This document shows, piece by piece, positions 3,352 to 43,189 of a stretch of 64,000 bases of DNA; the stretch's first letter is position 1, and each line of letters opens with the position of its first letter. The stretch spans positions 108,995 through 172,994 of the IMG/VR virus record IMGVR_UViG_3300038492_000258; one strand, given 5' to 3'. Source of the DNA: a virus (taxonomy: Duplodnaviria; Heunggongvirae; Uroviricota; Caudoviricetes). The notes under the pieces are model-generated. The model was not told the DNA's origin. It saw only the letters and a list, made by a program, of their open reading frames with translations, and did no database searches. Both the position numbers and the translations under genes were made by a program.

Positions 3352-3444
3352 CTTTGGTCTATTTTCAAGTTACATGAAAACGCTTAGAAAATGAAATTGG
3401 TGGGAGTGGGAATGCATTCCCACTCCCACCATCGCCACAGGGAG

Positions 3445-9325: not shown

Positions 9326-9947
9326 TTTACATGAACAATATACTAAATGGCAGGCGTCCAGCATGCCTGACGGCAATGTATTTGTAGTAACTGGAGACTT
9401 TACTTATCACGGTACGCTTCCTGAGATTGTTCGATTTGCTAAGTGGCTAGACACTATGCCTTACGAACACAAAATTGTGATTGCTGGTAATCACGATTGG
9501 TTGTTTCAAAAGGGTCAGTTTATGGCGATCGACCTTCTGAAAGAAAACTGTCCGGACGCGATTTACCTGGAAGACAGCGGATGTGTAGTAGATGGAATTC
9601 GTTTCTGGGGTAGTCCCTGGCAACCGTGGTTTTTTGACTGGGCATTCAACTTGCCTCGCGATAGCGAGGCTATACAGCGTAAATGGGACTTGATCCCAAA
9701 AGAAACAGATGTTCTCTTGACACATACGCCACCCTACGGTATAATGGACATCACTCGTGAAGGCAAGCATGTTGGGTGTGAGCGACTGACACAGTCCTTA
9801 CAAAGAATTCAGCCGAAAGCCCATATTTTTGGGCATATTCATGAGAGTTATGGTATACTAGAGCGTGGCGGCACTATCTTCGCCAACGCCTCGTCCGTTA
9901 ATAGAAATTATCGATTAGTAAACGACCCAGTGGTAATTGAGATATGA
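9303..9947 (+). CDS. calcineurin-like metallophosphoesterase
   Basis: Motifs GDFTYHG, GNHD, GHIH characteristic of metallophosphoesterases; candidate RNA end-healing 2',3'-phosphatase. Confidence 0.7.
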   Translation: MIIVGASDLHEQYTKWQASSMPDGNVFVVTGDFTYHGTLPEIVRFAKWLDTMPYEHKIVIAGNHDWLFQKGQFMAIDLLKENCPDAIYLEDSGCVVDGIRFWGSPWQPWFFDWAFNLPRDSEAIQRKWDLIPKETDVLLTHTPPYGIMDITREGKHVGCERLTQSLQRIQPKAHIFGHIHESYGILERGGTIFANASSVNRNYRLVNDPVVIEI

Positions 9948-12765: not shown

Positions 12766-13352
12766 AAATTTCAGATCACGTTTTTGATTATCTCGTTTCC
12801 GTTACGGACGACGAGGATATTGGAGCAACACGAAGATCAACGTTTTGGGGTTTCCTGTTATTTGGAGTCGTGGCCATTCTAGCCACCACGGGACTATATT
12901 TTAATGTAGCAGCGGCCCTGACCCTCACGCATGCGTTAGCTTGGGTTATTGGATTGCTCTGGATATTTGTTGCTGGAGTTTCTTTCCTTGGAATTGTTGG
13001 TTTATGGAGTATTAATGACTTCGATAAAAACTCGCGAAGTTATGATAATAAAATTTTCCATGAGCCGCACGTACAGTTCCGTCCAGGTTTCTTTTATCGG
13101 GTCCTAAACTGGACTGCTCGGCCGGGTTATATTGCTCTTTCGGTAATTGCTGGCTGGACTTTTCTATTGGTCGTCCAACTGCTTGCTCTGGCCGTAATGG
13201 TATTTTGTAGGCAGCAAATGAAAGGTGCCTGGCGAAAACGACTTGCTATTCTTGAATCCATGGATCCCGAAGAATTGGGGTCGATCAGGCAGCATTCACA
13301 CCCCTTTGAGGCTATGGCTAAGGCGGCCCTCGAAAATTTCGAAAAAAGTTGA
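12762..13352 (+). CDS. integral membrane protein
   Basis: About 4 hydrophobic helices. Confidence 0.4.
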   Translation: MKISDHVFDYLVSVTDDEDIGATRRSTFWGFLLFGVVAILATTGLYFNVAAALTLTHALAWVIGLLWIFVAGVSFLGIVGLWSINDFDKNSRSYDNKIFHEPHVQFRPGFFYRVLNWTARPGYIALSVIAGWTFLLVVQLLALAVMVFCRQQMKGAWRKRLAILESMDPEELGSIRQHSHPFEAMAKAALENFEKS

Positions 13353-13378
13353 GACACTCAGAAGTCTTAGTGTATAAT
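13349..13378 (+). promoter_or_regulatory. sigma70-like promoter TTGAGA-18-TATAAT
   Basis: TTGAGA at 13349, TATAAT at 13373; heads a 1.1-kb non-coding stretch. Confidence 0.45.
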
Positions 13379-13384
13379 AGTACT

Positions 13385-14215
13385 CGCGGATGAGATTCGC
13401 GACCTTCGGAAGAGGTGGGATGTAGCCCCCAAGTAGAGGTAACAGCGGCTGCGGCATCGTTAAATGCGGTGATTGTGTGGATAGAGGGAACGATAGCCAT
13501 GGATAGCTTCAACTGTCCGGGCACTCTACATGCCTTCGGGCATAGCCCTTCCGAAGAACTCTTTGACAACTTGTAATCGTACACCTGATGTTACGGTACC
13601 GTAACATCAGGAACCTAAGATAGTTACAGCAGAGAGGTAACTCTGCGGTATCGAGTATGAAGCCTCGGCATCACGTTACCAAGCATGCCAACCTCATGAA
13701 GGGAAGAGGATAAGAAAGATACCAGTAACTATTTATCTGACCCTGTCGTCTAGGCTAGGACACCCCCAATACTCAGGGGGAGACGAAGGTGCAACACCTT
13801 CCGGGGTCGCCAAACATGTTATTAACAAGCAGCTTATGGTGAAAAACTAAGGATAATGCTGACCCATAAACAAGTCCGTGGACCGATCTAAGCTTCCCCG
13901 GGCACTGCTACAATTACCACGAAGGGGTGGATAAGATTCTTGAAGTAAATAGAGACGTTCGCTTAGAAAACTATCTTTTTTATGAGGAGAACTCCGTCTC
14001 CGACAGAATTCCAAAATTGTATGTTGATAACAACTAGAGGCGAACATATTATCGCCTCTAAAGTCCAAACATGTATATGACGTAGCTACAGTCAGCATGT
14101 TTCTCTTAATCGGGCAAATTGTAGGAACGAATTCGGAATCGGCCAGCGATGTCCAGAATTCTTCGCGAGTATTAGGTTCGGACTGGCATACCCTTTTACG
14201 TCGAAGATTAAGAGT
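13385..14215 (+). ncRNA. long structured non-coding region (unknown RNA)
   Basis: No credible ORF; UUCG-capped hairpins (ATGCC-TTCG-GGCAT), long-range pairing CCTTCGGAAGAG/CTCTTCCGAAGG about 140 nt apart; the minus ORF 13847..14485 runs through tRNA genes and is spurious. Confidence 0.3.
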
Positions 14216-14224
14216 TTTTACATT

Positions 14225-14313
14225 GCCGTAGTATACCACTAGGGACGTGGAGCGGGCTGTAACCCCGTCGCCCGTAAAGGGCTGGCTAGGTTCGACTCCT
14301 AGATGCGGCACCA
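14225..14313 (+). tRNA. tRNA-Tyr (anticodon GUA), long variable arm, CCA encoded
   Basis: Anticodon arm GCGGG-CTGTAAC-CCCGT, variable arm GCCC-GTAAA-GGGC, T arm CTAGG-TTCGACT-CCTAG, ends ACCA. Confidence 0.6.
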
Positions 14314-14319
14314 AATAAT

Positions 14320-14465
14320 GGGATGGTATGTGGATGACAAGCGTGTGAAAGCTGGAACTTATGGAGAATGTAAATTGGCCAATTGCTTCCGTGAAGTAAG
14401 ATTCTTGGAGAACAAGATTTAGGCAGACCGGGCGTTGTGTTTGGGTTCGACTCCCAACCATTCCA
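14320..14465 (+). tRNA. tRNA-Ala-like paralog carrying an insertion of about 70 nt
   Basis: Same acceptor (GGGATGG/CCATTCC with G3.U70), D region and T arm as the tRNA-Ala at 6671..6747, but about 146 nt long. Confidence 0.35.
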
Positions 14466-14474
14466 TCAATCAAG

Positions 14475-14502
14475 TTGACAACCACTAGTATCGAGGTATA
14501 AT
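14475..14502 (+). promoter_or_regulatory. consensus sigma70 promoter TTGACA-16-TATAAT giving a leaderless transcript
   Basis: TATAAT ends 6 nt before the ATG at 14509. Confidence 0.5.
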
Positions 14503-14508
14503 GAGACC

Positions 14509-16590
14509 ATGAACAAGCAAGAAATTCTTATTAAGAAGCGTGATGCGATCGAAGCTCGTCCGGCAGCTCGTGCTCGTGCGGCAGATCTGAAAGATCCTCG
14601 TGCTTTGGTTTTCCAAGCCGAAGCCATGAGGCTTGGATTTATCCTCAGCGAAGACCTTTTGTCTACCATTAGTCGTCTGAGCGACACCGCAATTATGGCC
14701 CTCTACAAAGAAGTGGTGCCTGTTCTGCGGAACATGGTCGGCGATGATGTCGAGTGGAAGCCGATGTATCCTAACTTCCCGAAGCAAGTTATGGAGGCAC
14801 CGGTTATTGAGCTTTTCCTTAACGCTATCGTTCACTATTGGTCGGGCGGACAATGGACGCCCGATTATGTCGCTGAGCCTCGTTTGCCGGCATTTGAAGC
14901 AACAAAATTCCGCACTCTGTCCCTTGCCGGGAGCGACGACCTAGCTTCTATCTTTACAGAAATTCTGTCCGCAAACGCTTCTGTTACGCCTGCGGATATC
15001 CGTATGCTCACGGAAATGTTTGATCGTGGCGATATTAATGAAGCTCAATTGGCAGCGGCCCTTCCGGATAATATTCCGTTTAGAGAAACTCTCTGCTGGT
15101 TTGTTGGTGAATGTATCGATCGTGGATGGACCGTGACGGGCATGGGAGCACTCAAAACGGCTACCGACGTATTGCGGGTAGCTACCCACCTTTCTCAAGG
15201 AGATGTTTCTCTTGCTGAGAATACTCGCTATCGTAGCTTTAGTCGCCCCTTGCGTAGGGCCTTCGTTGAAAGGTTGGAGCAAGTAGCGAACCAGAACGAT
15301 GTTTTCCGTCATCGTGGTAAATGGGTGCGTCTAGCTCACTCGTTACACGTTGGAGACTTTAGTGCCCAAGCACCTAATTTCTACAACATGATTACGGCTG
15401 CTCGGAGTAATGCTACTAAATATCAAAGCTTTGATGGTCGTGTAGAATCCGCCATTGCAAATCGCGACCGTAAGGGCGTTTGTAGTCTCCTAAAGCAACG
15501 TCCTGGTGTATTCGCACGTCGTCTTGATCATCTTCTGCGAGAATTTGGTCCCCGTGATATTGCACGGGAATTCATTGGTGTGGTTGATAAGGTAGATACG
15601 CGAGTACTGCTACAACTGCATGGTCATTTCAATGGACGTACTCAGAGCGTCGATCGTCGTTTGGTATTCCCGAAGGGCAATATGGGTAAGGCACGTTTGC
15701 TTACTAATACGCTAGAGGCTCTGCCTACGGCAACCGTAAAGCATATTCGTGATGGTATTGAAAGTGCTCTAGAGGCACGTTTTGCGACCCTAGATCCTCT
15801 TGGAAAAGTTTATATCGATAAGACACTTTGGGATTGCCCAATTCCATTGAGCCTACGTTCTGCATCCGAAGGGCTACAAACTGTCGCCCGAGGCACACGA
15901 ATGCCGATTGGGGATAAGGGTACCGTTCGGATGTTTATCTACTGGAAAGGTCGTGACATTGATCTTTCTGGATTCTTGGTAAATGAAGACTTTACGCAAG
16001 AAAGTACTGTCGCTTATTACAATCTAAGAGAAGGTTTCGGATGTCACTCTGGCGATATTACGAATGCTCCTCGTGGTGCTTCTGAGTTTATTGACATTAA
16101 TGTCGATCAAGCTTTGGCTGAAGGTCATCGTTACCTAGTAATGACCGTTCATGTATATTCTGGTCCTACTTTTAAGGAGCACGAAGTTTGTTATGCGGGC
16201 TGGATGACCAGAAGTCATCCTGGCAGTAATGAGATTTACGATCCCAAAACTGTTCAGCACCGCATCGATGTGCAGGCCGATAGCCGCACGGCTGTGCCTG
16301 TTATGTTTGACCTAAAAGAAAGACAAGCGATTTGGCTTGACTTGGTCCAACGTGGTGGTAATCTAAGGCGTCCTAACAATGTTGCGAACAGCAAGGCTGG
16401 CCTTGTGGATTTCATTGATGGGGCATTGAATATGGATAATAAGCCAACGCTCTTCGAGCTATTCGAAATGCATGCAAGAGCACGAGGTACGATCGTTGAC
16501 AATATGAATGATGCCGATAAAGTCTTCTCTTGGTCTGAAGGCACGAAGCCTACGGATGTATCAGAGATTCTTTCAGAGTATCTTGGTTGA
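14509..16590 (+). CDS. large hypothetical protein (693 aa)
   Basis: Long uninterrupted ORF; helical N-terminal two-thirds, C-terminal region with degenerate vWA-like DIDLSGF segment; function unknown. Confidence 0.45.
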   Translation: MNKQEILIKKRDAIEARPAARARAADLKDPRALVFQAEAMRLGFILSEDLLSTISRLSDTAIMALYKEVVPVLRNMVGDDVEWKPMYPNFPKQVMEAPVIELFLNAIVHYWSGGQWTPDYVAEPRLPAFEATKFRTLSLAGSDDLASIFTEILSANASVTPADIRMLTEMFDRGDINEAQLAAALPDNIPFRETLCWFVGECIDRGWTVTGMGALKTATDVLRVATHLSQGDVSLAENTRYRSFSRPLRRAFVERLEQVANQNDVFRHRGKWVRLAHSLHVGDFSAQAPNFYNMITAARSNATKYQSFDGRVESAIANRDRKGVCSLLKQRPGVFARRLDHLLREFGPRDIAREFIGVVDKVDTRVLLQLHGHFNGRTQSVDRRLVFPKGNMGKARLLTNTLEALPTATVKHIRDGIESALEARFATLDPLGKVYIDKTLWDCPIPLSLRSASEGLQTVARGTRMPIGDKGTVRMFIYWKGRDIDLSGFLVNEDFTQESTVAYYNLREGFGCHSGDITNAPRGASEFIDINVDQALAEGHRYLVMTVHVYSGPTFKEHEVCYAGWMTRSHPGSNEIYDPKTVQHRIDVQADSRTAVPVMFDLKERQAIWLDLVQRGGNLRRPNNVANSKAGLVDFIDGALNMDNKPTLFELFEMHARARGTIVDNMNDADKVFSWSEGTKPTDVSEILSEYLG

Positions 16591-16722
16591 TAAATAAAAT
16601 TGAACGGCCACATAATATCTTCCTTCTATATCTACGATTTTGGAAACCTAGATATTAAACTTTCCGTTCCATTATACAAAACAATGCGGCTATAAGCTTC
16701 TCTTCCTTCTATTTTACCAACC

Positions 16723-16852
16723 GGGGGTTGCGGGTTCGAGTCCCGTCAGGCGGCCCTGCCGTCTGTAGCTCAACTGGTAGAGCACCGGTCTTATTCGAAA
16801 CTAGAGAGCCCAATTTCCGCACTTACAAAGGCCCGGCGACGGCAGGGCCTAT
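16723..16852 (+). ncRNA. atypical tRNA-like element
   Basis: T-arm-like GCGGG-TTCGAGT-CCCGT followed by a D-arm-like GTAGCTCAACTGGTAGAGCA enclosed in a 12-bp inverted repeat GGCCCTGCCGTC/GACGGCAGGGCC; does not fold as a canonical cloverleaf. Confidence 0.3.
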
Positions 16853-16854
16853 CG

Positions 16855-16941
16855 CTCTAGATGACAGATGCATATGTTGTTGGTGTAAAGGCAGCACACC
16901 GGCCGAAAGCCGGAGGAACGGTTCGATTCCGTATCTAGGGT
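16855..16941 (+). ncRNA. tRNA-like element with long extra arm and non-canonical anticodon region
   Basis: Acceptor CTCTAGA/TCTAGGG, T arm AACGG-TTCGATT-CCGTA, extra arm CCGGC-CGAAA-GCCGG; no standard 7-nt anticodon loop found. Confidence 0.3.
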
Positions 16942-17252
16942 GATGAATACAAGGTGGCTATTCGAATTCCTTCCTTCTATGATGCTGCACAAGCATCAGC
17001 CTATTAAGCTGACTTTAGGGATTGTAATTTCCACCACTTAAAACATGACGGCTATTCTTACTTCTTCCTTCTACATCAAATTTATTGGAAAATTTTAAAT
17101 AGAGGCTGAAATCTCCGTCATTTCTTACAAGTGAAGTGTATCTGACTGTACCAACGTGGTGACTATTGAGACCGCAAATCTCAATATGGAATCGACAGAA
17201 TGGGGCGGTGCTCAGCTAGCCGTCAAATGTCACCGGACGCTTCACTTTTCAT

Positions 17253-17289
17253 GTCCATGAAAATTTTCATGTACATGAAAGGGCTCGTT
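17253..17289. promoter_or_regulatory. tandem palindromes TTTTCATGT(C/A)CATGAAA x2 upstream of tRNA-Glu
   Basis: ttttcatgtccatgaaaattttcatgtacatgaaa, each unit internally palindromic (TTCATG-N-CATGAA). Confidence 0.3.
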
Positions 17290-17823: not shown

Positions 17824-17900
17824 GGCTCTGGGGCCCGTGAGGACGGGCAGTGGCCTCTAAAACCACTTTGTAGCGGGTTCGACTCCCGTCAGGGCCTCCA
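17824..17900 (+). tRNA. candidate amber-suppressor tRNA (anticodon CUA)
   Basis: Acceptor GGCTCTG/CAGGGCC (7 bp with one G.U), D arm GCCC-GTGAGGAC-GGGC, anticodon arm GTGGC-CUCUAAA-ACCAC with C.A at 31-39 (alternatively perfect 5-bp stem with 9-nt loop, CUA still central), T arm GCGGG-TTCGACT-CCCGT, ends TCCA. Confidence 0.45.
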
Positions 17901-42819: not shown

Positions 42820-43103
42820 CAGATCATACCGAAGAAATCGCCGAGCTTGAGCAACGTGTACGTCGTCTCAAAGAAGAGCAACGTGCATTTAATAACCTAT
42901 CTAAGGCACAAAAAATTGCCGATGCTCTGCACGGCAAGTTATGTCGCCAAAACCATACGGACGGATGTGGTTGGGGATATGAAAGCTGGGATAAGCCAGG
43001 CCATGCCAAAAAAAGATATCTTGACGCAGCAGAAAAAGTGCTGCGTCAAGTGGACTATCCCCGAGCAGTAAAAATTGTGGAAGCACTTGACAGGCTTGCA
43101 TAG
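42816..43103 (+). CDS. hypothetical protein
   Basis: 95-aa ORF. Confidence 0.35.
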   Translation: MTDHTEEIAELEQRVRRLKEEQRAFNNLSKAQKIADALHGKLCRQNHTDGCGWGYESWDKPGHAKKRYLDAAEKVLRQVDYPRAVKIVEALDRLA

Positions 43104-43115
43104 CGTGATATAATG

Positions 43116-43189
43116 GGGGAGATGGTGTAATGGCAGCACGACGGTCTCATAAGCCGTTAGTTCAAGTTCGAATCTTGATCTCCCTACCA
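43116..43189 (+). tRNA. tRNA-Met (anticodon CAU; elongator or Ile2-type), CCA encoded
   Basis: Acceptor GGGGAGA/TCTCCCT, anticodon arm ACGGT-CTCATAA-GCCGT, T arm TCAAG-TTCGAAT-CTTGA. Confidence 0.6.

What the first reader, a model, noticed from the sequence alone, without database searches (positions are those of the whole stretch)
13349..14215. About 0.8-kb promoter-driven structured non-coding region upstream of tRNA-Tyr
There are no ORFs here. A TTGAGA-18-TATAAT promoter sits at the start. The region has multiple UUCG/GNRA-capped helices and long-range complementary segments (CCUUCGGAAGAG ... CUCUUCCGAAGG). It is followed directly by tRNA-Tyr and an insertion-bearing tRNA-Ala-like gene, so it may be a long leader of a tRNA operon. 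However, its size and structure suggest an independent ribozyme or riboregulator (group I intron-like, RNase P-like or novel).
Basis: seen in the sequence. Interest (0 to 1): 0.55.

Follow-up and report, generated by a model that had tools for sequence, protein, structure and literature searches.

The report
Orphan non-coding leader of phage tRNA operon
This is a real, promoter-driven 0.85-kb non-coding stretch in the tRNA island of an uncultivated large phage; it holds a decayed tRNA copy and runs into a tRNA-Tyr and a mini tmRNA-like gene, but nothing shows it to be a ribozyme or a conserved structured RNA.

Summary
The non-coding gap is real. It spans 13353-14508, the longest gap in the 64-kb window. 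No + strand ORF exceeds 53 aa, no single stop-codon recoding opens one, and six-frame Pfam/PHROG searches find nothing. The TTGAGA-18-TATAAT promoter is real (11/12) and belongs to a set of 11 near-consensus + strand promoters.

It is homologous to a relative's tRNA-Thr(GGU). It splits the region into a ~355-nt 5' part and a ~410-nt 3' part.

The case for exceptional structure is weak:
- The folding z-score (about -4) is matched by 3 of 14 equal-sized windows of the same phage.
- Four long-range helices are matched by 27 of 146 windows.
- Only UUCG/GNRA-capped hairpins are mildly enriched (3, all in the 5' 300 nt; 4 of 146 windows reach that).
- A perfect 28-nt palindrome is present.

Rfam at E<=10 finds no GOLLD, ROOL, RNase P or intron. 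No homologue turned up in phage GenBank, IMG/VR, JGI metagenomes, GTDB genomes or 83 related loci, whether by BLAST, nhmmer, exact patterns or two covariance models.

Best reading: the leader and spacer of a polycistronic tRNA-type transcript. A new GOLLD/ROOL-like RNA is not excluded (about 15-20%).

The parts
13349..13378 (+). Sigma-70-type promoter TTGAGA-18-TATAAT. The expected start is near 13385.
   Evidence: 11 of 12 matches. It is one of 11 near-consensus promoters on the + strand, against 3 on the - strand.
13384..13402 (+). 8-bp hairpin with a 3-nt loop at the predicted 5' end of the transcript.
   Evidence: MFE and centroid structures agree. A role in stabilising the 5' end is inference.
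13404..13557 (+). Predicted domain 1, a multi-branch fold. It is closed by CUUCGGAAG (13404-13412) pairing with CUUCCGAAG (13548-13556). It contains the UUCG-capped hairpin 13530-13543.
   Evidence: z = -2.5, 0 of 200 shuffles as stable. Helix listed, capped hairpins. No homologue with covariance model R2.
13584..13611 (+). Perfect 28-nt palindrome CCTGATGTTACGGT/ACCGTAACATCAGG. As RNA it gives 12 bp plus a GUAC loop. No U-tract follows.
   Evidence: From base frequencies I expect about 2e-4 such palindromes in 64 kb (my calculation). No match in IMG/VR.
13618..13734 (+). Predicted domain 2, closed by a 10-bp helix (13618-13627 with 13725-13734). It contains the GUAA-capped hairpin at 13637.
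   Evidence: z = -3.5, 0 of 200 shuffles as stable.. No homologue with covariance model R1.
13739..13812 (+). Degenerate tRNA. The 7-bp acceptor stem, 5-bp T-stem, discriminator G and encoded CCA are intact. The T-loop is UGCAACA and the anticodon loop AAUACUCA is abnormal (8 nt, or 7 nt with an A.G mismatch and C at position 37).
   Evidence: ARAGORN calls it 'tRNA-Ser(act)'. The Rfam tRNA model does not match at E<=10. It is 71% identical over 76 nt to tRNA-Thr(GGU) of relative L080 at 2623-2695, which scores 57 bits as a tRNA.
13813..14224 (+). 3' spacer with lower G+C and weak predicted structure. Predicted elements: an 11-bp long-range helix (13817-13827 with 14022-14032), a 10-bp hairpin (14034-14061) and a 9-bp helix (14103-14111 with 14206-14214). 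A weaker promoter-like site lies at 14024-14052.
   Evidence: z = -2.7 for 13813-14104 (4 of 200 shuffles) and -0.9 for 14100-14224. No Rfam match at E<=10. Promoter-like site and hairpin.
14225..14313 (+). tRNA-Tyr(GTA) with a long variable arm and encoded CCA. It has an acceptor mismatch and a weak D-stem.
   Evidence: ARAGORN. It falls below the Rfam tRNA gathering score, being absent. Its best match is tRNA-Sec at 26 bits.
14320..14468 (+). Mini tmRNA-like / tRNA-Ala-like element. It has the acceptor stem GGGAUGG/CCAUUCC with G3:U70, a tmRNA-type 5' segment UGGAUGAC, a canonical T-arm and about 85 nt in place of the anticodon arm.
   Evidence: Rfam tmRNA at 17 bits, E 1.7e-4, below the gathering score of 47. 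ARAGORN does not call it at default settings.
14475..14502 (+). Next promoter, TTGACA-16-TATAAT. It marks the end of the non-coding unit. The ATG of the 693-aa gene lies 6 nt after the -10 box.
   Evidence: 12 of 12 matches. Sequence.

Best explanation
The region is the non-coding leader and spacer of a polycistronic, tRNA-type primary transcript in the tRNA island of a large uncultivated phage.

Proposed mechanism:
1. Host sigma-70 RNA polymerase starts at about 13385, from the promoter at 13349-13378.
2. It reads through a ~355-nt 5' part (a 5' hairpin, two helix-closed domains and a 12-bp hairpin), a decayed tRNA copy (13739-13812) and a ~410-nt weakly structured spacer.
3. It then reads through tRNA-Tyr and a mini tmRNA-like RNA.
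4. The decayed tRNA has kept what RNase P and the 3'-end trimming enzymes recognise: acceptor stem, T-stem and RCCA. It has lost what decoding needs.
5. It most likely acts only as a processing punctuation. It would cut the precursor into a 5' RNA, a tRNA-sized piece and a spacer, and so free the downstream tRNA-type RNAs.

Shown: the non-coding nature, the promoter motif, the tRNA-derived element and the downstream genes. Inferred: co-transcription, RNase P processing, and any stability or function of the released 5' RNA.
For: Non-coding nature:
- No ORF under the standard code or any single-stop recoding, and no pseudogene signal.
- The - strand ORF has no homologue and overlaps two tRNA-type genes.

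Transcription:
- The promoter scores 11/12 and belongs to a + strand-biased set, several of which directly precede tRNAs.
- No terminator-like site lies on the + strand between the promoter and the tRNA-type genes.

tRNA-derived element:
- The cloverleaf at 13739-13812 has an intact acceptor stem, T-stem and GCCA.
- It is homologous to a functional tRNA-Thr(GGU) of a relative.
- It fails the Rfam tRNA model.

Context:
- The syntenic relatives L081 and L082 carry an ordinary tRNA array at the same place, between the DUF2201 and 693-aa genes.
- Structure statistics are ordinary for this genome. No Rfam family matches.
Against: - Other tRNAs of this phage have their promoter immediately upstream. 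A promoter 850 nt ahead of the first usable tRNA is therefore odd and hints that the intervening RNA matters.
- Phage genomes rarely keep 0.85 kb of functionless sequence.
- The 5' 300 nt have higher G+C, three tetraloop-capped hairpins (only 4 of 146 background windows have as many) and two domains that no shuffle out-folds.
- In L021 a GOLLD RNA occupies the same position relative to the 693-aa gene.
- No transcript data were available. Co-transcription and processing are untested.
Confidence: 0.5

Rival explanations
1. An independent large structured non-coding RNA. It would be a functional analogue of GOLLD or ROOL, the large phage RNAs of tRNA islands, built as a 5' region, a tRNA in a linker and a 3' region. 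It would represent a class not yet described.
For: - The size (~850 nt), the place in a phage tRNA island and a tRNA-like element in the middle match the GOLLD layout described in PMC12286853.
- Rfam GOLLD lies next to homologues of the neighbouring 693-aa gene in L013, L021 and L025. In L021 the order is the same: RNA, two tRNAs, gene.
- It has its own strong promoter.
- Tetraloop-capped hairpins are mildly enriched, and domains 1 and 2 have z = -2.5 and -3.5.
Against: - No match to the GOLLD or ROOL models at E<=10. GOLLD's conserved 3' terminal motif is absent. No similarity to the GOLLD of L013.
- No homologue anywhere searched.
- Global folding and long-range helices are ordinary for this genome.
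- The 3' half, which is the conserved half in GOLLD, is the least structured part here.
Confidence: 0.18
2. Decaying remnant of the tRNA island with no function as RNA. Dead tRNA genes or lost insertions, such as homing-endonuclease genes, would have left neutral sequence that happens to follow a promoter.
For: - All three tRNA-type elements in the gap are substandard. The pseudo-tRNA has no Rfam tRNA match. tRNA-Tyr is below gathering. The tmRNA-like element scores 17 bits.
- The relatives L070 and L003 carry HNH endonuclease genes among tRNAs at this position.
- Structure statistics are at background.
Against: - No trace of a decayed protein gene in any of six frames.
- No tRNA remnant other than 13739-13812.
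- A perfect 28-nt palindrome and a perfect -10 box (11 of 12 promoter positions) do not look like decay.
Confidence: 0.17
3. A DNA-level element: a transcription-primed replication origin, an operator or another protein-binding site centred on the 28-bp palindrome.
For: It is the largest intergenic region of the window, with a strong promoter, a perfect palindrome and a second inverted repeat at 14034-14061.
Against: - The cumulative GC skew has its minimum at about 8 kb, where gene orientation switches, and rises smoothly through 13-14 kb.
- There are no iterons or significant direct repeats. The repeat families found are at chance level (expectation is my calculation).
- The palindrome does not recur in the window.
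Confidence: 0.08
4. A ribozyme or other known catalytic or regulatory RNA: a group I or group II intron, RNase P RNA, or a riboswitch-like riboregulator.
For: Only the size, and short resemblances such as GUCCGGGC (seen by eye).
Against: - No Rfam match to any of 4227 families at E<=10 with permissive filters.
- No interrupted host gene surrounds it, as an intron would need.
- No counterpart of the CR-V segment ACAGAA-CCGGCUUA that forms RNase P helix P4 (read by eye against the consensus as I remember it).
Confidence: 0.02
5. It encodes one or more small proteins, or the 212-aa - strand ORF is real.
For: Short ORFs exist: 36, 32 and 44 aa on the + strand in 13927-14231, and 212 aa on the - strand. 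Public gene callers called the - strand ORF.
Against: - None has a Shine-Dalgarno sequence at a usable distance, or a promoter placed as for the leaderless genes here (read).
- The - strand ORF overlaps tRNA-Tyr and the tmRNA-like gene. It has no Pfam, PHROG or database homologue.
- All genes from 7.8 kb to 62 kb are on the + strand.
Confidence: 0.05

Closest known systems
Leader and spacer segments of bacterial and phage polycistronic tRNA operons, including the phage T4 tRNA cluster with its two co-transcribed stable RNAs of unknown function (from my own knowledge)
   Same: A promoter, then non-coding RNA and tRNA-shaped units in one transcript. tRNA-shaped elements provide the RNase P and 3'-end processing sites. 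Non-tRNA pieces are released as by-products or as stable RNAs.
   Different: The leader and spacer here are very long (355 and 410 nt). Other tRNAs of this phage have promoters directly upstream. The internal tRNA is degenerate. Processing has not been shown.
GOLLD RNA (Rfam RF02032)
   Same: About 800 nt, encoded by phages in tRNA islands. It has a 5' region, a linker that can hold a tRNA, and a 3' region (PMC12286853). It is found beside homologues of the same 693-aa gene in L013, L021 and L025.
   Different: No match to the covariance model even at E<=10. The conserved 3' motif is absent. No sequence similarity to a bona fide GOLLD. The 3' half here is the least structured part.
ROOL RNA (Rfam)
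   Same: A large phage or prophage RNA near tRNA islands, of unknown function.
   Different: No model match. ROOL is about 580 nt (from my own knowledge). I know of no ROOL with an embedded tRNA.
tRNA pseudogenes and tRNA-like processing signals such as mascRNA at the 3' end of MALAT1 (from my own knowledge)
   Same: A tRNA-shaped element that keeps the acceptor/T-arm minihelix recognised by RNase P but cannot decode.
   Different: The known examples are eukaryotic. Here the element also keeps an encoded CCA and derives from a phage tRNA-Thr-type gene.

Membership tests
GOLLD RNA (RF02032) | Match to the covariance model of the conserved 3' region | tested here: not met
   No match at E<=10 in 13250-14520 or 13800-14230. 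True GOLLDs in related loci score 174-316 bits.
GOLLD RNA (RF02032) | Conserved 3'-terminal motif AAAG..GUGUAAUCUCAGC | tested here: not met
   No match in the window with up to 3 mismatches.
GOLLD RNA (RF02032) | Phage-encoded, in or beside a tRNA island, about 800 nt, with a tRNA sometimes in the linker | tested here: met
   28 tRNA-type genes in the window and a tRNA-like element at 13739-13812 inside the 846-nt region.
GOLLD RNA (RF02032) | Homo-oligomeric nanocage | not testable with these tools
   Needs purified RNA and cryo-EM or size-exclusion analysis.
ROOL RNA | Match to the Rfam covariance model | tested here: not met
   No match.
RNase P RNA | Match to any Rfam RNase P model, and the conserved P4 segments | tested here: not met
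   No Rfam match at E<=10. GUCCGGGC occurs, but no ACAGAA-CCGGCUUA partner (read by eye).
Group I / group II introns | Match to the catalytic-core models, and insertion in a host gene with flanking exons | tested here: not met
   No Rfam match, although the same search finds group I introns in related loci. The flanks are a complete upstream ORF and a complete tRNA-Tyr.
tRNA (element 13739-13812) | Cloverleaf with a 7-bp acceptor stem, a 5-bp T-stem, a discriminator and CCA | tested here: met
   ARAGORN structure.
tRNA (element 13739-13812) | Match to the Rfam tRNA model, a canonical T-loop (U54-U55-C56), and a 7-nt anticodon loop with U33 and a purine at 37 | tested here: not met
   No RF00005 match at E<=10. 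The T-loop is UGCAACA. The anticodon loop is AAUACUCA, or has an A.G mismatch with C37.
tmRNA (element 14320-14468, just outside the flagged span) | tRNA-Ala-like domain: G3:U70, T-arm and the tmRNA-type 5' segment | tested here: met
   Alignment to RF00023 over both ends. Sequence.
tmRNA (element 14320-14468) | Score at or above the Rfam gathering score, pseudoknots and a recognisable tag reading frame | tested here: not met
   17 bits against 47. 51 nt stand in place of 278 model positions. ARAGORN does not call it at default settings. Candidate frames such as ANCFREVRFLENKI* lack the usual hydrophobic end (read).

The most novel reading that the evidence does not exclude
The ~850-nt transcript, or at least its 5' ~355 nt, is the founding member of a new class of large structured phage RNAs of tRNA islands. 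It would have a GOLLD-like layout (5' region, tRNA-like linker, 3' region) without sequence or model similarity to GOLLD or ROOL. It would occupy the position that GOLLD holds next to the same conserved 693-aa gene in other phages.
Probability: 0.15. Interest if true: 0.65.

Novelty: new member of a known kind. Interest (0 to 1): 0.27.

Why it matters
If it is only a long leader and spacer with a dead tRNA, it is an ordinary piece of a phage tRNA island. Its main use is to warn annotators against the spurious 212-aa ORF and the 'tRNA-Ser(act)' call.

If the 5' RNA proves stable and conserved, it would add a third kind of large phage tRNA-island RNA beside GOLLD and ROOL, whose functions are still unknown. 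It would also tie such RNAs to a widespread gene of unknown function (phrog_33734).

Tried and rejected
1. Known RNA families. Rfam was run at gathering score on the whole window and at E<=10 on two sub-ranges. It found nothing in the region.

2. Coding. I tried the standard code, three recodings (prompted by the tRNA with anticodon CUA at 17824), six-frame Pfam and PHROG searches, and a database search of the - strand ORF. All were negative.

3. DNA homologues.
- blastn against 50,697 phage records at E up to 10 found only chance hits of 21-31 nt.
- nhmmer and blastn against 83 loci around homologues of the neighbouring gene found only the pseudo-tRNA matching real tRNAs.
- Exact-pattern scans of IMG/VR (4), JGI metagenomes (1) and GTDB genomes (1) found only one unrelated small contig with the L080-type tRNA-Thr.

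4. Closer relatives through the flanking 196-aa protein. This found only three contigs 100% identical to the window, so there is no variation to analyse.

5. Single-sequence covariance models of domains 1 and 2, searched over 738 kb. Only self-hits came back.

6. GOLLD by local alignment and motif search. Negative.

7. Internal duplication. Repeats shared with the tmRNA-like element (14-nt and 11-nt blocks) are at about the number I expect by chance.

8. Replication origin by GC skew. No signal here.

9. Ro60/Y-RNA idea for the 693-aa neighbour. The AlphaFold model has pLDDT 81. It shows a helical repeat domain plus a C-terminal TerD-like domain (Foldseek E 3e-5 to TerD) and no Ro60 match.

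10. Thermodynamic and helix-count arguments for structure. They lose force once compared with the phage's own background.

Full report
**Setting.** The window is part of a large uncultivated phage.
- It carries 28 tRNA-type genes, a nicotinamide phosphoribosyltransferase and a CCA-adding enzyme.
- Almost all genes from 7.8 kb onward are on the + strand.
- Three public contigs (JGI 3300039208, SRR4039775, SRR4039776) are 100% identical over this region.
- The next relatives share only 50-62% amino-acid identity in the conserved neighbouring gene.

- The stretch 13353-14508 is the longest gap without a plausible ORF in the window, at 1156 nt.
- On the + strand nothing exceeds 53 aa.
- The phage has a tRNA with anticodon CUA at 17824, so I tested recoding. 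Reading TAG, TGA or TAA as sense opens no long + strand frame.
- Six-frame translations match no Pfam or PHROG family even at E<=1.
- A 212-aa ORF on the - strand (13847-14485), which public gene callers accept, overlaps tRNA-Tyr and the tmRNA-like gene. It has no family or database homologue, so I treat it as spurious.
- The promoter TTGAGA-18-TATAAT is at 13349-13378 with 11 of 12 matches. Eleven promoters of this quality lie on the + strand against three on the - strand, and several sit directly before tRNAs or genes. The motif is therefore credible in this phage.
- tRNA-Tyr(GTA) follows at 14225-14313.
- The 'insertion-bearing tRNA-Ala-like gene' is at 14320-14468. Its only Rfam match is tmRNA, at both ends, with 17 bits and E 1.7e-4.

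- A tRNA-shaped element with encoded CCA lies at 13739-13812, in the middle of the region.
  - It keeps a 7-bp acceptor stem, a 5-bp T-stem, discriminator G and CCA.
  - Its T-loop is UGCAACA and its anticodon loop AAUACUCA is abnormal.
  - The Rfam tRNA model does not match it at E<=10.
  - It is 71% identical over 76 nt to a good tRNA-Thr(GGU), 57 bits, of relative L080. It shares the anticodon stem, variable loop and T-stem with that tRNA.
  - It is therefore a decayed or re-purposed copy of a phage tRNA.
  - It splits the region into a ~355-nt 5' part and a ~410-nt 3' part.
- A perfect 28-nt palindrome lies at 13584-13611.

**Is the structure more than chance?** Mostly not.
- The whole region folds with z = -4.0 to -4.6 against dinucleotide shuffles. 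Fourteen other 846-nt windows of the same phage, mostly coding, average about -2.6. Three of them reach -4.4, -4.5 and -7.5.
- Local 150-nt windows stand out only where the two perfect hairpins lie.
- The long-range pairings that close four predicted domains are real: 13404/13556, 13618/13734, 13817/14032 and 14103/14214. However, 27 of 146 background windows have at least four such helices.
The pairing is 9 contiguous base pairs.
- Points in favour of structure concern the 5' 300 nt:
  - Domains 1 and 2 are not out-folded by any of 200 shuffles, with z = -2.5 and -3.5.
  - G+C is higher there.
  - Three UUCG/GNRA-capped hairpins lie there, and only 4 of 146 background windows have as many.
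- The 3' end is indistinguishable from shuffles, with z = -0.9.

**Known families.**
- Rfam finds nothing in the region at gathering score or at E<=10 with permissive filters on 13250-14520 and 13800-14230. That excludes recognisable GOLLD, ROOL, RNase P, group I and II introns, 6S and riboswitches.
- The same tool readily finds GOLLD (174-316 bits), tmRNA and group I introns in related loci, so the negative result carries weight.
- GOLLD's conserved 3' motif is absent. A local alignment to the GOLLD of L013 scores within the shuffle range.

**Homologues.** None was found, so covariation could not be tested.
- I searched GenBank phages.
- I searched 67 IMG/VR loci and 13 assembly loci around homologues of the 693-aa neighbour.
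- I ran exact-pattern scans of IMG/VR, JGI metagenomes and GTDB genomes.
- I ran single-sequence covariance models of domains 1 and 2 over 738 kb.
- The relatives with the same gene order, L081 and L082, carry other things at this place. They have a tRNA array, an insertion-bearing tRNA-Met-like gene and a 79-aa leaderless ORF. L070 and L003 carry tRNAs and HNH endonuclease genes.

**Context that keeps the novel reading alive.**
- Homologues of the 693-aa gene sit in tRNA islands. Of the roughly 40 loci I screened with Rfam, three have a GOLLD RNA close by: L013, L021 and L025.
- In L021 the order is GOLLD, two tRNAs, gene. That is the order seen in the window.
- GOLLD is described as a 5' region, a variable linker that sometimes holds tRNAs, and a conserved 3' region, encoded by phages near tRNA islands (PMC12286853).
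- The window's region has that layout and position, but none of the sequence or model features.

**Most likely mechanism.** It is a polycistronic tRNA-type transcript.
- Transcription starts near 13385. The first 19 nt form an 8-bp hairpin.
- No + strand terminator-like site precedes the tRNA-type genes.
- The decayed tRNA retains the acceptor/T-arm minihelix and RCCA, which RNase P and 3'-end maturation use (established knowledge of RNase P substrates).
- It would therefore act as a processing site that separates a 5' RNA from the spacer and frees tRNA-Tyr and the tmRNA-like RNA.
- Co-transcription, processing, and any stability or function of the released pieces are inferences. I give this reading about 0.5.

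**Rivals.**
- A new GOLLD/ROOL-like structured RNA: about 0.18.
- A functionless decaying remnant: about 0.17.
- A DNA-level element around the palindrome: about 0.08. GC skew gives no support.
- Small proteins: about 0.05.
- A ribozyme of a known kind: about 0.02.

**Verdict.** The feature is real and non-coding. The claim of exceptional structure is not supported against the phage's own background, and there is no evidence for catalysis or conservation. It is best filed as a long leader and spacer of a phage tRNA operon that holds a tRNA pseudogene. The untested possibility remains that its 5' part is a new large phage RNA.

Noticed in passing
window 16591-17281, with related loci L026-L049 just downstream of the homologous gene and L073 5150-5450: Directly downstream of the 693-aa gene lie four copies of a motif, (AATTTCC..~17 nt..)GGCTAT-N8-12-CTTCCTTCTA. 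Three match the strict pattern, with 0 expected by chance. The same kind of array, GGCTAT-N6-7-GTTACTTCTA in 4-5 copies about 100 nt apart, follows the homologue in a clade only 28-30% identical. This is a conserved gene-plus-array module of unknown nature. It is absent from the flagged region.
   Followed up: partly
window 16715-16795, and 16837-16848: A tRNA 3' half (anticodon-stem 3' strand, T-arm, acceptor 3' strand, CC) lies immediately upstream of a matching tRNA 5' half (acceptor 5' strand, D-arm, anticodon-stem 5' strand). This is the layout of a circularly permuted or split tRNA gene, flanked by the motif above. A 12-nt segment at 16837-16848 is complementary to the junction. Neither ARAGORN nor Rfam calls it. 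Read by eye; the fold is not decisive.
   Followed up: partly
L025 6579-6705, L040 6615-6737, L041 6328-6456, L042 6667-6792, L044 6587-6716, L049 6639-6761, L050 6049-6185, L065 6087-6220: Full-length Rfam tRNA matches of 123-137 nt lie just downstream of the 693-aa homologue. Each carries a conserved ~55-nt insertion after the anticodon stem that contains the GGCTAT..GTTACTTCTA motif. This may be a phage tRNA intron or a small mobile insert.
   Followed up: partly
L013 6801-7267, L021 2920-3336, L025 8200-8598: GOLLD RNAs (Rfam, 174-316 bits) lie within about 2 kb of homologues of the 693-aa gene. The L013 copy has a tRNA inside its linker. tmRNAs lie about 2 kb downstream in L026, L041, L044 and L049, and upstream in L001.
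   Followed up: partly
window 14509-16590: The 693-aa protein (phrog_33734, more than 2800 homologues, no Pfam domain) is predicted as a helical repeat domain plus a C-terminal TerD-like domain. The model has pLDDT 81 and Foldseek gives E 3e-5 to TerD. It recurs in phage tRNA islands.
   Followed up: partly
window 14320-14468: A 149-nt tmRNA-like RNA has a tRNA-Ala-type acceptor stem and T-arm but lacks the pseudoknots. Possible reading frames are ANCFREVRFLENKI* and ENVNWPIASVK*. It may be a reduced phage tmRNA or a tRNA-Ala mimic.
   Followed up: partly
window 17824-17900; L081 9032-9103 and 12599-12672; L082 9093-9166 and 13085-13161: The window has a tRNA with the amber-reading anticodon CUA, which ARAGORN labels Pyl. 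The relatives carry tRNAs whose anticodon loops ARAGORN reads as 2-nt or 4-nt (UUCA) anticodons. Non-standard decoder tRNAs seem common in this phage group.
   Followed up: no
window 14475-14511; L081 and L082 about 9330-9360: A perfect TTGACA-16-TATAAT promoter has the ATG of the 693-aa gene 6 nt after the -10 box, which implies a leaderless mRNA. The same arrangement precedes a 79-aa ORF in L081 and L082.
   Followed up: no
window 19307-19337 and 43087-43116: Near-consensus promoters end 1-2 nt before the annotated 5' ends of tRNA-Gly and tRNA-Met. The predicted start would therefore fall inside the tRNA as annotated.
   Followed up: no
window 3398-3431 and 17247-17280: Two further long palindromes lie in intergenic DNA. 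One is a perfect 34-nt palindrome. The other is 34 nt and 95% complementary, just before tRNA-Glu.
   Followed up: no
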